DNA from: Octopus vulgaris
Taxonomy: Eukaryota
DNA length: 64,000 nt
Direction: 5' to 3'
Assembly (NCBI GenBank): GCA_951406725.2
Contig: OX597823.1
Coordinates: 93,682,001-93,746,000, forward strand
How positions within the stretch are numbered: the stretch's first letter is position 1; each line of letters starts with the position of its first letter. Both the position numbers and the translations under genes were made by a program. Below the pieces are notes generated by a model. That model was not told where the DNA came from. It saw only the letters and a program-made list of their open reading frames with translations, and did no database searches. This document shows positions 3,550 to 55,339 of this stretch, in pieces.

Positions 3550-3624
3550 AGCTTACAGTTGTTTCTGCTATATGAAGCAATGCAAGAATAGGCTTATGTG
3601 ATAACCATTAGCTTCATCAGAGCT
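3550..3624 (-). ncRNA. type I hammerhead ribozyme motif
   Basis: Minus strand: AGCT-CTGATGA-A GCTA...TAGC A-GAAA-CAACTG-TA-AGCT; stem I AGCT/AGCT, stem II GCTA/TAGC, GUA cleavage triplet. Confidence 0.7.
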
Positions 3625-3874
3625 TTAATCATGAAGTGCAACTTTTAAAATTGCATTTCATATTTGAAGTTCCGGTAATAGTATAGCATAATAAAGGCCA
3701 CACACAAGCACCCTAACGGGCGCTTGTGTATTACTTCCTTACATACATGCACACAGAACACATGCATAAACACATACATACGTACGTTCCTACATAAATA
3801 CATAAACACATAATACCGACCTACACACACACACACACACATACACACACACATATATATATATATATATAACA

Positions 3875-4175
3875 AATGGAAGACAAGATGGAACATATGA
3901 GCATATATTGTTAATCACGACAATTGTTTCGACACATCTAGCACCGAATCCTTTTGTGGGACACTCAACAACTGGTTCAGGAGTATCCGGTGGTGCAGAG
4001 ATATCTCGTCGGGTGATAAGTAAATAAATAAATAAACTCGTTAAAATGACTGTTGCACAATGCAACTTTCTGTTTTGTAGAGAGAAAGAGGTAGACAGAG
4101 GAAACTTCTTCATATATATAGAAGATCCCCAAAATAAATTTGCAGAAGACAAAGAGAGAAACGAACACGTATATA
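3875..4175 (-). mobile_element. PLE pLTR-like repeat with variant hammerhead at 3914-4017
   Basis: Reverse-complement homologue of 16365-16660; ATCAC-CCGACGA-GATATCTC...AGATGTGTC-GAAA-CAATTG-TC-GTGAT. Confidence 0.65.
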
Positions 4176-4667
4176 TAAATTTGTTATGTGAAGTGATATT
4201 CAGATGACAAAATGGAATATAGTGAATATTTGAACAATGAACTCTAGGCCCGTAAGGTTTCGACTGAAAAGGAGAACAATGGAAGTTCACTGTTGATTAG
4301 CTTTGCAGAATCATTTCGAAATATGATTTGAATTATTATTTAAATGTAAACTTATAACAAAGCATTATTTGTTGTTCAGAAAATATATTGACTTAAAGTT
4401 GTTTTTAAAACGCATTTAAATTATGTGAAAGGAGAACAAATGTAAAATAGTGTCAGATGACTTGTATTTTAATGAAGTTAAAATGACTAGAATCTTAAAC
4501 TAAAAGCTAATTCGGCTGAACGCCCCAGGCCATGCAAACCTATTAGATTGGAAGGTAATGGCAGATATAAAGGTTTATCAAGGGAAAAAAGCACATTAAT
4601 ATGAAGGAGTGCATTTCATGAGTTCTAAGTTGATTTCTAGATATTTTCACTGAGAGCCACATTAACG

Positions 4668-5087
4668 TAGCAGCAGCAGCAACGGCAGTAGTAGTAGTAG
4701 TAGTAGTTGCAACAGCAGCAGCAGTAGCAGTAGTAGTAGCAGCAGCATAGTAGCAGTACTAGTAGTAGTAGTAGTAGCAGCAGCGCGCCAGCAGCGCGCC
4801 AGCAGCAGTAGTAGTAGTTGTAGTAGTAGTAGTGGTAGTAGTGGTAGTAGCAGCAGCATTGTAGCAGTACTAGTAGTAGTAGTAGCAGCAGCAGCGCGCC
4901 AGCAGCAGTAGTAGTAGTTGTAGTAGTAGTAGTGGTAGTGGCAGCAGCAGCAGCAGTAGTAGTAGTTGTAGTAGTAGTAGTGGTAATTGCAGCAGCAGTA
5001 GTAGTAGTAGTAGTAGTAGTAGTAGTAGCAGCAGCAGCAGCAGTAGTGGTGGTAGTGTTAGCGGTTGAGGTGGTGATGGTGGTGGTG
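4668..5087. repeat. compound (TAG)n/(CAG)n/(TGG)n trinucleotide repeat with ~100-bp internal duplication
   Basis: Direct reading; GCAGTACTAGTAGT...GCAGCGCGCCAGCAGC occurs twice. Confidence 0.9.
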
Positions 5088-5649
5088 TTCATGTATATGT
5101 TCAAACACCGGAAATTCTCCTCAAATAATTCTTACGCTGAATCGTTAATCGCGCGCCATAAAATCCGGAGATAGACATTGCTTGGTTCTACGTAACCAAA
5201 CGCAAAGAAATAAACGGAGAAATATAAATATAATAAAAATTTCGGAATGGTTTGAATCCAACCCGCATTCGCTAGCAAAAAGTAATAACTTCCATGCTGC
5301 TAAATCTCTTTCGTCTGTTTGTAGGCATTCCATAGCAGAAAATATCATTGTATTCCGACATGAAGCCAAATGGTTTTCTTGGCAAGAATATGGTCAAAGC
5401 GTATTTTAATATTAACGTAAACCTGGTTGAATTGTTCCACTCAAACAAAAACGGTAGAGTTAATAATTTGTAACCAAGCTGCAACCGAAAATTACTTTCT
5501 CGTCCCCATTTGTATTCCATTCGTATCAATGTATTTGAAGGGTTACTTCGTTACTTTTTATGTAAGATGATAATAGTGTAAAACCTACGCGAAATCGTCA
5601 AGAATAGATTCTTTATATTTCGATATATATATATATATATATATATATG

Positions 5650-6255
5650 ATAGTGAGCAAAAATATGCGACCAGGAAGGGAAATGTAACGATAAAGCGAT
5701 CTCACACGTACTTGTACATACGGCGGCAAGCAGCCGAGGTGTGTTGAGCCGGCTCCGATTAACGAGTTCATCACACCGCTTATGAATGCTATAAGAGTAA
5801 GCGATTCGGATAGCGTAGACGCGCCGTAGCCGCGCTCAGTATTCGCTCTTAGGTGCGGAGTTCATGTTCGGAGGGTCAGTTGGAAAACATGTTCGCATGT
5901 GGTCTCCCCTTACATGCAAACACAGGTTCGCATGTGGTCCCCGCTCGCATGTTCCTCTTTCCGTCGATTGTCGCCCATTGCAAAAGATTCTCTTACCAAG
6001 TTACCGCACATTATTGGAACAGATACAGCTTGGTTTTGAAGAAGGTTCTAAAGACATGCTTTAACAAAAGCTAAGGGGTCCCTCACTCCCAGTGAACTTC
6101 CAGTACGCCGAATATTAACCTGCAATTTGTGAGGACCGGCGCTATTAATACATAGTCGTCGAACCTACATTTGGTTAACCTGTTCTTATGACTGGTTTTA
6201 CTTTTTGCCCTGTTGAGGCTCTAGCAACCCTCTTCACGAGGCAGGCCTAGTGGGG
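5650..6255 (-). mobile_element. possible 3' remnant of an R2-superfamily (REL) non-LTR retrotransposon
   Basis: GC-richer island next to (TA)n; only weak minus-strand resemblance to REL C-termini (GSSLGV). Confidence 0.25.
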
Positions 6256-6261
6256 GAGGCG

Positions 6262-53182: not shown

Positions 53183-53624
53183 TCATCTTTTGCTTGTTTC
53201 AGTCATGAGATTCCGGCCATGCTGGAGCACCGCCTTCAAAAATTTTAGTCGAACAAATTGAACCCAGTTCTCGTTTTTCTTTTTCAGCTTGGTAGTTATT
53301 CGATCGGTCGCTTTTATCAGACCGTTAGATTGCAGGGACATAAACACAGGAACACCGGTTGTCAAACAGTGGTAGGGGACAAAAACAGACACAAAGACAC
53401 ACGCACATAAAAGCAAGCAAACTTCCACATACATATATATATATTTTTTTTTTTATTTATTTATTTATTTATTTATGTATGTATGTATGTATGTATGTAT
53501 GTATGTATGTATGTATGTATGTATGTATGTATGTATGTATGTATGTATGTATGTATGTGTGTGTATGTATACATATGTAGCCATGTTCTTGGGAAGCAAA
53601 CTTACCACACAGTGACGTTGCGCC
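53183..53624 (-). mobile_element. SINE family A with internal (TATG)n
   Basis: GGCCATGCTGGAGCACCGCC...GGTTGTCAAAC; head remnant GGGAAGCAAACTTACCACACAG. Confidence 0.7.
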
Positions 53625-54429
53625 TATGATGATAGTAAACAACTAGAAACATTGCCCTTAGAGCGTGTGCAGATTTCAGGAGAAACTCAATGGTAATTCC
53701 TTGTAAAGGAAATCTGTTATTGAACCTTGTGAAGTAAATGTTCGAGTCTCGAGTCCCGGGATTTAAAGGACCAGTTACGTGGTTTCCATGTCTCGTAAGT
53801 GACCAACACCACAGAATTCCCCTTGGATGGGGTGGTAAAGTGTGGCAGTGGTATGCATTTACAAGTAAGTGATTTGGAGCAATGTAAAATGAAGTTCTTT
53901 GCTGTCTGGAACACAATGCACCGCCCACTTCTGGAATCGAAACCGTGCTCTTATGATCGTCAATGCAGTGCCCGAAACACTGAACCACGTTGCTTCTCAG
54001 TCTAACTTTTTGGCGAGAAGAAAACTGAGTAAAGTAAAAGTGTGAATCTTTTATTGGATGAAAAATCATATGTATGAAAACTAAATTAAATACAAGATTT
54101 ACAAACATATTCGATAATTAAACAAAGTAGAAGAGACAGCGATGAAAGAAAATGTTTTGACAGATTATTATGAGTGTATTCGATAACCTTGAATACCTGA
54201 AGAGGTCTAATAGTAATAAGAAATATGTATGCTAGATATATTTGGTTTTGTAATAGCTATAACAGCAGTTTTTAGTCATTTACTTTAATCTGAGTTCAGA
54301 AGAAACTCTCTTAATCAAAATAACTACCCTTAAAATCAAAATAGTTTTGCAACCAAAGAAACTATACTCGTATTCTTGTAGCTTATGACATTTTACACGA
54401 AGGCAGCAAAAATGTATTAGAAATAACGG

Positions 54430-54568
54430 TCTCAAATTTTGGAACAATGCCACCAATTTTGGGAGAGTAATGAATCGATTACAGCGGACCTAGTGCTCGA
54501 ATTGTACTTATTTTATTAGTCACGAAAGGGATGAGAAGCTAGATCGACCTTGGCAGAATTTGAACTCT
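54430..54568 (-). mobile_element. SINE family C fragment
   Basis: TCAAATTTTGG...GTACTTATTTTA...TCGACCTTGGCAGAATTTGAACTC. Confidence 0.55.
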
Positions 54569-54619
54569 CTTTCGAGTAAAACCACCAATAGAAGAGAATA
54601 TGACCAAAAACTGAAGCTC

Positions 54620-54925
54620 TTGTAGGCTATACAAAGGCGAAGCATGTCGCCCCCTCAGAATAAGGGTGGACGAACATCGTAGAGCTGTGACACGAGGAGA
54701 TATTGATAAATCGGTAATAGCTGATCATGTATGGGGAAATGGAGACCACCTTCCCCTGTGGAATGAAGTTAAAATAATAGACAGAGAATACCACTGGAAA
54801 ATACGAAAACTATAAGAAGCAGAACATATATTAGGACAGAACAACCTCCTAAGCAGACACAGTGCAGATATGAGTAGCATATGGGAACCCGTATTAATGA
54901 AGGATAGGAAAATATTAAAATTATA
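54620..54925 (+). mobile_element. Penelope-like GIY-YIG endonuclease remnant (second family)
   Basis: YKGEACRPLRIRVDEHRRAVTRGDIDKSVIADHVWGNGDHLPLWNEVKIIDREYHWKIRKL*EAEHI. Confidence 0.8.
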
Positions 54926-55210
54926 AGTCCTAAAATTCATTCCATAATTGCCCACAGGCATATGGCCTAGTGGTTAAAAGAGCGAGCCACTAACCCCGAG
55001 TTCGATTCCAGACAATGACCTGAATAATAATGATAATGGTGGTTATTTCACAATAGTTTTCCAGCTGTATAATGCATCTACCACCTTCTATACGTTGTGT
55101 GTATGTATGTATGTATGTATGTATGTGTATGTATGTGTATGTATGTATGTGTATGTATGTGTGCATGTATGTATGTGTGTATGTATATATATATATATAT
55201 ATATATATAT

Positions 55211-55339
55211 ATTTATTATATAGAAGGAGCTTCTACAGGACTAGTACTGTTTCATTCAAGAGAAATCTTCAGGAAGCCTGAAGATTTCTCTTGAATGAAA
55301 CAGTACTAGTCCTGTAGAAGCTCCTTCTATATAATAAAT
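55211..55339. repeat. perfect 63-bp-arm palindrome carrying a hammerhead-like core on each strand
   Basis: ...GAAATCTTCAGG-AAG-CCTGAAGATTTC...; CTGAAGA-T TTC TCTT GAA T-GAAA-CAGTACTAG-TC. Confidence 0.9.

What the first reader, a model, noticed from the sequence alone, without database searches (positions are those of the whole stretch)
3550..55339. High density and diversity of hammerhead motifs: at least 13 recognisable motifs from about 7 families in 64 kb
Seen: canonical or near-canonical cores at 3550-3624(-), 3914-4017(-), 15258-15352, 16515-16620, 30168-30220, 39674-39778(-), 40127, 40612, 41096, 46375-46469(-), 47915, 48267 and 55278. Eroded ones lie at 18588, 18950, 23378(-) and 30735-30910(-). 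Stem III is repeatedly palindromic or nearly so: CATATG, CAATTG, CTCGAG, CCGG, AGTACT, CGGTGCATCG. Known: a palindromic stem III allows minimal hammerheads to work as dimers. Inference: if this window is typical, the genome holds a very large, largely unannotated set of ribozyme retroelements, with four PLE coding remnants here as candidate mobilisers.
Basis: partly seen in the sequence, partly recalled or inferred. Interest (0 to 1): 0.85.

Follow-up and report, generated by a model that had tools for sequence, protein, structure and literature searches.

The report
Dense hammerhead ribozymes from Penelope elements
The self-cutting RNA motifs in this window are real and sit at the ends of Penelope-type jumping genes and of small non-coding repeats that likely ride on them; this octopus-like genome is estimated to carry about 100,000 of them in many unusual shapes, although the window is about four times richer than average and cutting is predicted, not tested.

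Summary
Observation largely confirmed. Eleven motifs pass a type I hammerhead descriptor (0.25 in shuffles); 2 more of the 13 are eroded copies of true hammerhead families. The 11 come from only 7 insertions. Nine families are present, each with 178-2,595 genomic candidates. The window is not typical: a fixed-position 0.8-Mb sample gives about 44 motifs per Mb (about 120,000 genome-wide, 85,000-160,000), against about 170 per Mb here. They are ends (pLTRs) of Penelope-like elements (PLEs) and tandem non-coding retrozymes. One window family matches the pLTR hammerhead of intact Hydra-clade PLEs. Retrozyme insertions show the PLE footprint: (TA)n target, head-to-head arms, one short and one long end (21 of 22 insertions). 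Three PLE remnants were found, not four; the broken remnants cannot be the mobilisers, but intact copies lie elsewhere. The system is known. What differs: covarying stem II regions of 40-113 nt in half the motifs, and family-wide U4C, U3-A8 and A3-U8 cores. Cleavage and circular RNA are untested. The scan noted these families and the two-end rule before, on other DNA of this genome.

The parts
3550..3624 (-). Type I hammerhead, 48-nt stem II region, stem III CAACTG (family mostly CAGCTG); old family
   Evidence: 510 candidates, 73-85% identity; 8 of 20 copies intact
3914..4017 (-). Type I hammerhead, U4C core, 75-nt stem II region, stem III CAATTG; pLTR family of a decayed Hydra-type PLE
   Evidence: 2,001 candidates; CCGA is the family majority; upstream of the PLE N-terminal coding piece, same strand, in 5 of 24 loci
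8774..9699 (+). Broken Neptune-type PLE coding remnant (RT thumb, linker, GIY-YIG); its 3' end holds only a cut-off hammerhead remnant near 9985-10005
15173..15410 (+). 5'-truncated PLE-type end with intact hammerhead at 15265-15345 (54-nt stem II region, CATATG)
   Evidence: 2,595 candidates; 26 of 30 intact; 75% identical to the pLTR hammerhead of an intact 907-aa PLE, L340
16374..16658 (+). Eroded copy of the 75-nt stem II, U4C family; hammerhead 16515-16620 with damaged stem III (CAATTC)
   Evidence: 73% identical to the 3914 copy
17453..18670 (+). Broken Neptune-type PLE: coding remnant 17453-17959, 3' UTR, U3-A8 hammerhead near 18586-18625 (GAAA damaged), then (TA)n
   Evidence: (2,282 candidates)
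18740..19045 (.). Head-to-head two-armed insertion; each arm has a U3-A8-type hammerhead-like motif with GCAA in place of GAAA
23302..23516 (-). Eroded copy of the 18588 family
   Evidence: 80% identity over 219 nt
30168..30220 (+). Hammerhead with intact core but damaged stems I and III; the family has TCGCGA stem III
   Evidence: 275 candidates; 5 of 20 intact
30690..31032 (-). Hydra-type PLE N-terminal coding remnant (30826-31032) joined to the 3' half of a hammerhead (GAAA CAATTG TA near 30740-30755)
39442..41324 (.). Young retrozyme insertion of a 484-485-nt unit: minus arm 39442-39920, plus arm 39918-41324, four hammerheads (39673-39779 minus; 40126, 40611, 41095 plus; 68-nt stem II region; predicted cut after 40224), (TA)n on both sides
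   Evidence: (1,542 candidates, 97-100% identity among the 40 scored)
46143..46631 (.). Two-armed insertion of the 54-nt stem II family; intact hammerhead 46380-46464 (minus), long end on the minus arm, short end on the plus arm
47819..48478 (.). Retrozyme insertion of a 352-nt unit with hammerheads at 47915-47959 and 48267-48311 (U-U mismatch, CTCGAG) and a short inverted arm
   Evidence: 2,215 candidates; 22 of 25 intact
55211..55405 (.). About 190-bp fold-back mini-element in (TA)n; intact hammerhead on the minus arm (55228-55278), plus arm cut inside stem I
   Evidence: (178 candidates)

Best explanation
These are type I hammerhead motifs carried in the terminal repeats of Penelope-like retrotransposons (Hydra- and Neptune-type) and in small non-coding tandem retrozymes that are likely copied by PLE proteins. 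Shown: the motifs, their families, their place in pLTRs of intact PLEs, their (TA)n targets and their two-armed, short-end/long-end insertions. Inferred: a PLE endonuclease nicks both strands of a (TA)n tract; reverse transcription starts at two fixed internal sites downstream of the hammerhead (132 and about 236 nt past the cut in the 485-nt unit; 173 and about 216 in the 352-nt unit); the two 5'-truncated copies join head to head. Since every copy starts just downstream of the hammerhead, even short stubs keep it, which explains the density. Predicted, untested: the hammerheads cut tandem transcripts into unit-length RNA, as dimers through the palindromic stem III or with help from the PLE protein, and the units close into circles that serve as templates for tandem arrays.
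For: 11 motifs against 0.25 by chance; 38 against 2.7 in 0.8 Mb. Stems covary within homologous families: 11 of 15 pairs change on both sides among 5 relatives of the 485-nt unit, 10 of 26 among 8 members of the 54-nt family, 6 of 11 in the long stem II; 0 of 500 shuffles reach either covariation score. L340: open 907-aa frame, a hammerhead in each pLTR and an inverted third copy, 75% identical to window 15265, with long and short ends in (TA)n. These frames have the RW and DKT motifs of the Hydra clade; L345 also has CxCX5C (against PMC8557442 section 11). L151 has RVT_1 and GIY-YIG. The window remnant 17453-17959 runs through a 3' UTR into the 18588 motif and (TA)n. One short and one long end in 10 of 10 two-armed insertions of the 485-nt family and 11 of 12 of the 352-nt family (one unresolved). 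(TA)4+ within 300 nt downstream in 20 of 26 sampled motifs against 28% of random positions. Two internal RT start sites that bound the genomic tail were shown in vitro for a lizard PLE (PMC11167929).
Against: No cleavage or circle was shown. In the lizard PLE, hammerhead mutants did not reduce insertion and no RNA-seq read ended at the cut; only 1 of 9 frog retrozyme dimers cleaved in vitro. No autonomous partner sharing sequence with the 485-nt or 352-nt units was found among held loci, so their mobiliser is inferred from footprint alone. Insertion ends never fall at the predicted cut, so the DNA does not record cleavage. Pfam gave no RT or GIY-YIG hit for the three Hydra-type frames. The covariation sets are small, were picked because they pass the descriptor or flank a PLE, and the structures were drawn from the same sequences. 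Family loci were the best BLAST hits, biased to close copies.
Confidence: 0.85

Rival explanations
1. Same origin, but most motifs are passengers: they are kept because they lie next to the RT start sites or form the protein-binding fold, and cleavage is weak or irrelevant to spread; tandem arrays come from template jumping on linear RNA or from tandem transcripts, not circles.
For: Hammerhead-dead mutants still insert in vitro (PMC11167929). U4C, which lowers activity in vitro (PMC3088659), is the majority state of several families. Fold-back elements with a cut stem I are abundant. Naiads multiply without canonical hammerheads.
Against: The catalytic boxes stay invariant while stems turn over with compensation, the 3-8 pair covaries (C-G, U-A, A-U) and stem III stays palindromic, which points to selection on the catalytic fold itself.
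Confidence: 0.3
2. The tandem units are satellites spread by DNA-level processes (unequal crossover, rolling-circle DNA), with the hammerhead a relic.
For: Arrays of up to 6 or more units exist (L013, L162); local tandem growth by crossover is discussed in the 2026 preprint.
Against: Near-identical copies lie on many chromosomes, each in (TA)n, with two fixed 3' ends, variable 5' junctions and inverted arms, the same layout as intact PLEs.
Confidence: 0.04
3. The motifs are chance matches in AT-rich repetitive DNA.
For: Relaxed descriptors give about 3 chance hits per 0.8 Mb; one named site (30735-30910) looks like a chance join.
Against: 11 against 0.25 in the window, 38 against 2.7 in the sample, 0 in the reversed window; family-level conservation and covariation.
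Confidence: 0.01

Closest known systems
Hammerheads in pLTRs of metazoan PLEs (Cervera and de la Pena 2014, PMC4209133; parts 1-2 of 4 read)
   Same: Type I motif, short palindromic stem III, mostly lone motifs from truncated PLEs, opposite-strand pairs 100-700 bp apart, many families per genome, U3-A8 core variant.
   Different: There helix II is 7-8 bp at most and counts are 2,000-9,000 per genome; here half the motifs (19 of 38) have a 40-113-nt stem II region, and the estimate is about 120,000 (other descriptor, so not strictly comparable).
Animal non-LTR retrozymes (Cervera and de la Pena 2020, PMC7229834, passages and section 14 read; Li et al. 2026 preprint 10.64898/2026.07.22.740005, parts 1-3 of 5 read)
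   Same: Non-coding tandem units of 352 and 485 nt, low GC, one type I hammerhead per unit, strongly folded as a circle (z about -5), U-U stem II base as in axolotl HHR_Amex2; derivation from PLE pLTRs already proposed.
   Different: Long stem II and a 10-nt stem III insert in the 485-nt unit; regular two-armed insertions with two fixed ends are not described in the parts I read; axolotl has 126,247 motifs but in a 28-Gb genome (about 4.5 per Mb against about 44 here).
Hydra-clade PLEs (Craig et al. 2021, PMC8557442; passages, section 11, supplement rows seen)
   Same: RW and DKT motifs, C-terminal endonuclease, (TA)n target, inverted 5'-truncated copy, tail at one end, canonical hammerhead; an octopus member (Hydra-1_Obim) is already listed.
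   Different: Frames here are 899-962 aa and units about 3.6 kb (published: under 3 kb); tails 43-150 nt (published 30-40); the four Hydra hammerhead rows I saw in File S2 have 12-23-nt stem II regions, not 55-100.
Poseidon PLE of Anolis, in vitro (Frangieh et al. 2024, PMC11167929; parts 1-2 of 4 read)
   Same: AT-rich target, two internal RT start sites bounding the tail, hammerhead upstream of them.
   Different: Different clade; no retrozyme template was tested; the assignment of one start site to each arm is my inference.

Membership tests
Type I hammerhead ribozyme | Core boxes CUGANGA, GAAA, UH in type I order with three helices | tested here: met
   11 motifs against 0.25 in shuffles; one has U4C, two a U-U stem II base, both known variants
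Type I hammerhead ribozyme | Covariation in the helices | tested here: met
Type I hammerhead ribozyme | Match to Rfam hammerhead models | tested here: not met
   0 hits at gathering score; none among the 150 best of 204 weak hits shown or in 47850-48400; the models do not expect these stem lengths (inference)
Type I hammerhead ribozyme | Self-cleavage at the UH site | not testable with these tools
   needs in vitro transcription
Animal non-LTR retrozyme | Non-coding tandem unit of a few hundred nt with one type I hammerhead per unit | tested here: met
   485-nt and 352-nt families; not met by the lone PLE-end families, which are not filed as retrozymes
Animal non-LTR retrozyme | Dispersed multicopy insertions | tested here: met
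   1,542 and 2,215 candidates on many chromosomes
Animal non-LTR retrozyme | Abundant circular RNA in tissues | tested here: inconclusive
   only assembled contigs of runs guessed to be RNA were available
Penelope-like element ends (pLTR) | Homology to the terminal repeat of a coding PLE | tested here: met
   54-nt family to L340, L338; 75-nt family upstream of Hydra-type N-terminus in 5 of 24 loci; 18588 contiguous with a coding remnant. Not found for the 485-nt, 352-nt, 3550, 30168, 55278 and 18950 families
Penelope-like element ends (pLTR) | 5' truncation, inverted copy, tail at one end, AT-rich target | tested here: met
Hydra clade (for the intact partners) | RW(K), DKT, CxCX5C linker, no CCHH, (TA)n target | tested here: met
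   RW and DKT in L336, L340, L345; CxCX5C only in L345; read by eye
Hydra clade (for the intact partners) | Placement in an RT phylogeny | not tested
   no tree was built
Neptune clade (for two window remnants) | RT, CX2-5CxxC linker, C-terminal GIY-YIG with CCHH | tested here: inconclusive
   RVT_1 then GIY-YIG and a Cys linker in L151; clade label from motifs partly recalled, no tree

The most novel reading that the evidence does not exclude
This genome is among the densest hammerhead habitats known in an animal (about 1e5 motifs, dozens of families), and its PLEs and retrozymes use a distinct ribozyme design: a long, covarying stem II in place of the usual loop contacts, with deliberately weakened cores (U4C; a natural A3-U8 pair) that cut only when the PLE protein binds or two units pair. 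The intact Hydra-type proteins would then be the actual mobilisers of the young 485-nt and 352-nt retrozymes, copying RNA circles from two internal start sites, one per arm.
Probability: 0.3. Interest if true: 0.72.

Novelty: new variant of a known kind. Interest (0 to 1): 0.5.

Why it matters
It supplies a measured census: about 44 hammerheads per Mb, half with stem II regions far beyond what Rfam and published descriptors allow, so animal hammerhead counts may be large underestimates. It also makes two open questions testable in one genome: which enzyme copies animal retrozymes, and what the hammerhead does in PLE mobility. Intact PLE frames, their pLTR hammerheads and 99%-identical retrozymes with predicted RT start sites are all on hand. 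It is not a new class of element.

Tried and rejected
Rfam: no hammerhead hit. Expression: no RNA holder listed on record; contigs of runs guessed to be RNA cover the whole 485-nt unit and cross the predicted cut, but tandem DNA gives the same joint; summed depth on the unit relative to a neighbouring SINE was lower in the three guessed-RNA runs (about 0.0002-0.01) than in the likely DNA run (about 0.05), and relative to an old repeat higher in one of three; contigs cannot show ends, strand or level, so no conclusion. CpG decay as the cause of CCGA: rejected, CCGA is the majority and decay would run the other way. 150-nt stem II motif at 30735-30910: rejected as a chance join. Fourth PLE remnant: not found by tblastn with all collected PLE frames; the other coding remnants match non-PLE LINEs; Pfam scan of 34 window frames gave only weak RVT_1 hits in those LINEs. 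Autonomous partner of the 485-nt unit: none among held loci; only 70-90% non-coding relatives. Non-circular strand orders with an intact core: 0 in the window, 1 convincing-looking SGC case in 0.8 Mb; split-core forms were not searched. The Lunse et al. paper on small PLE hammerheads is not held; it may already describe some core variants. Literature searches found no paper on octopus hammerhead numbers, no A3-U8 natural core under that spelling, and U4C only as a viroid variant; the library lacks most subscription papers, and the preprint's supplements were not seen.
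Full report
Setting. The window is G000 C10:93,682,001-93,746,000 in a 2.8-Gb genome of 227 contigs, rich in (TA)n microsatellites. I call it octopus-like by inference from size and repeat content.

Observation. A strict type I descriptor found 6 motifs against none in 120 shuffles. Allowing a mismatch or extra base at the foot of stem II, U4C, Watson-Crick 3-8 covariants and a stem III insert up to 16 nt gave 11 against 0.25 (max 2) in 40 block shuffles. The eleventh is the minus arm of the fold-back element at 55211-55405; the plus arm is cut inside stem I. 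Sites 16515 and 30168 have damaged stems, but their families contain intact motifs. Sites 18588 and 23378 belong to a U3-A8 family and have a damaged GAAA box. Site 18950 is a similar motif with GCAA in both arms. The long motif 30735-30910 is probably a chance join. Rfam sees none of them.

Is the window typical? No. I took 80 stretches of 10 kb at round-number positions fixed in advance on 28 chromosomes. The final descriptor found 38 motifs in 32 of 80 stretches against a mean of 2.7 in six shuffles: 44 per Mb net, bootstrap 30-58, or about 120,000 genome-wide (85,000-160,000). Stricter tiers gave 14, 18 and 23 motifs, i.e. 18-29 per Mb. The window has about 170 per Mb; 3.0 motifs are expected, and P for 10 or more is 0.001. 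Counted as 7 insertions the excess is mild (P about 0.04, worked by hand from the same mean). The 40 kb flanking the window has none. The sample is systematic, not random, and under-represents chromosome ends.

Diversity. Each window family is a dispersed repeat with 178-2,595 first-look candidates (lower bounds, not copy numbers). Clustering 266 motifs from all held loci gave 49 clusters, 23 of them with a member in the 0.8-Mb sample, a few of which are probably chance. Of 38 sampled motifs, 19 have a stem II region of 40-113 nt; cores are C3-G8 in 19, U4C in 10, and U3-A8 or A3-U8 in 9, the last group holding most chance hits. U4C is the majority state of the 3914 family and of at least three others. 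A Neptune-type PLE family has ATGAATA (A3-U8), a 2-bp stem II and CCGG in 26 of 38 aligned 3' UTR rows, some rows being the same locus twice.

Selection on the fold. Five relatives of the 485-nt unit keep 96% of pairs, with double-sided changes in 11 of 15 pairs, including the palindrome. Eight members of the 54-nt family keep 90%, with 10 of 26 pairs changed on both sides, 6 of them in the long stem II. Slid controls fall to about 40%. The sets are small and selected.

Link to PLEs. A protein search with the remnant at 9304-9573 gave 11,700 candidates; a long copy has RVT_1 and GIY-YIG. A search with 30817-31074 led to many open frames of 899-962 aa, some in 3.6-kb tandems, with Hydra-clade motifs. 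L340 has hammerheads in both pLTRs and an inverted third copy, 75% identical to window 15265; L347 and L348 carry a U4C motif with a 100-nt stem II region at their ends. The 3914 family lies upstream of the Hydra-type N-terminus in 5 of 24 loci. In the window, remnant 17453-17959 runs into the 18588 motif. Three remnants were found, all broken.

Insertion footprint. The 20 loci of the 485-nt family are 13 insertions; all 10 with two visible arms are head to head in (TA)n, one arm ending 132-134 nt and the other 231-240 nt past the predicted cut. For the 352-nt family, 11 of 12 two-armed insertions have one short end (173, twice 134) and one long end (215-225). L340 shows the same pattern. This is the published PLE layout (PMC8557442), and the two ends match the two internal RT start sites shown for a lizard PLE (PMC11167929). 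In the 55278 family a variable site is the same in both arms in 20 of 20 copies (14 A, 6 T), as expected if both arms are copied from one template.

Mechanism. Shown: motifs, families, pLTR position, targets, ends. Inferred: PLE protein nicks (TA)n and primes at two sites downstream of the hammerhead, so even short stubs keep the motif. Predicted: cleavage as dimers or with protein help, and circles as templates. Against a simple cleavage role: hammerhead mutants of the lizard PLE still insert, and 8 of 9 frog retrozymes did not cleave. RNA evidence here was inconclusive.

What is known. PLE hammerheads, palindromic stem III, dimers and U3-A8 are in PMC4209133; retrozymes and their circles in PMC7229834; their PLE origin in a 2026 preprint; U4C as a viroid variant and U-U in PMC3088659; an octopus Hydra element with a hammerhead in the supplement of PMC8557442. 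A 2026 octopus repeat annotation lists 30 recently active Penelope families and does not mention ribozymes in the two of three parts read. Not found in my searches: a census for a cephalopod, stem II regions of this length ('long helix II' means 6 bp in PMC13725137, passages) and a natural A3-U8 core. One key paper on small PLE hammerheads could not be read. The scan's own notes report the same families and the two-end rule elsewhere in this genome; I reached both before looking.

Verdict. Real, dense and diverse, of a known kind, with variant ribozyme architecture. Interest 0.5.

Noticed in passing
window 55211-55405; L251-L270: A 190-bp fold-back mini-element with identical copies on three chromosomes. 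Among the 20 best hits both arms stop in or just before the 5' strand of stem I, suggesting a template of only about 140 nt or a self-perpetuating palindrome (hits are biased to this junction).
   Followed up: partly
L102-L120, L151-L165 (3' UTRs): Abundant Neptune-type PLE family whose hammerhead has an A3-U8 pair, a 2-bp stem II and CCGG; I found no report of this natural core.
   Followed up: partly
L336, L337 (G000 C1:119.51 Mb, C24:21.62 Mb): Tandem arrays of near-identical Hydra-type PLEs with open 899-aa frames, 3.6 kb apart; dozens of such frames genome-wide suggest current activity. Pfam does not recognise them.
   Followed up: partly
L058, L347, L348: Hammerhead with U4C and a 100-nt stem II region at the ends of a Hydra-type PLE.
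   Followed up: partly
L048, L081, L082, L086, L089: Minimal U4C hammerhead (stem III insert CG) in 5-6 of 80 sampled stretches, so probably over 15,000 copies; parent element not identified.
   Followed up: no
L024 (minus strand, about 9200-9280): A hammerhead-like junction in S-G-C strand order with stems of 9, 5 and 7 bp; fits the rewired hammerheads in the scan's notes.
   Followed up: no
window 24785-26813, 29722-29802, 31347-31634, 57579-60147 (minus); 62553-63452 (minus): Remnants of non-PLE LINEs: a restriction-like-endonuclease type (Dong/Hero-like, label recalled) and a CR1/L2-like one.
   Followed up: no
window 39190-39395, 41425-41600, 43425-43800, 44875-45010: Very high-copy SINE-like repeats (about 100 hits per 0.8 Mb), often next to the same microsatellites that take the hammerhead elements.
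   Followed up: no
window 12800-13130, 23779-24243: Frames that look like Tc1/mariner transposase remnants (by eye, no Pfam hit).
   Followed up: no
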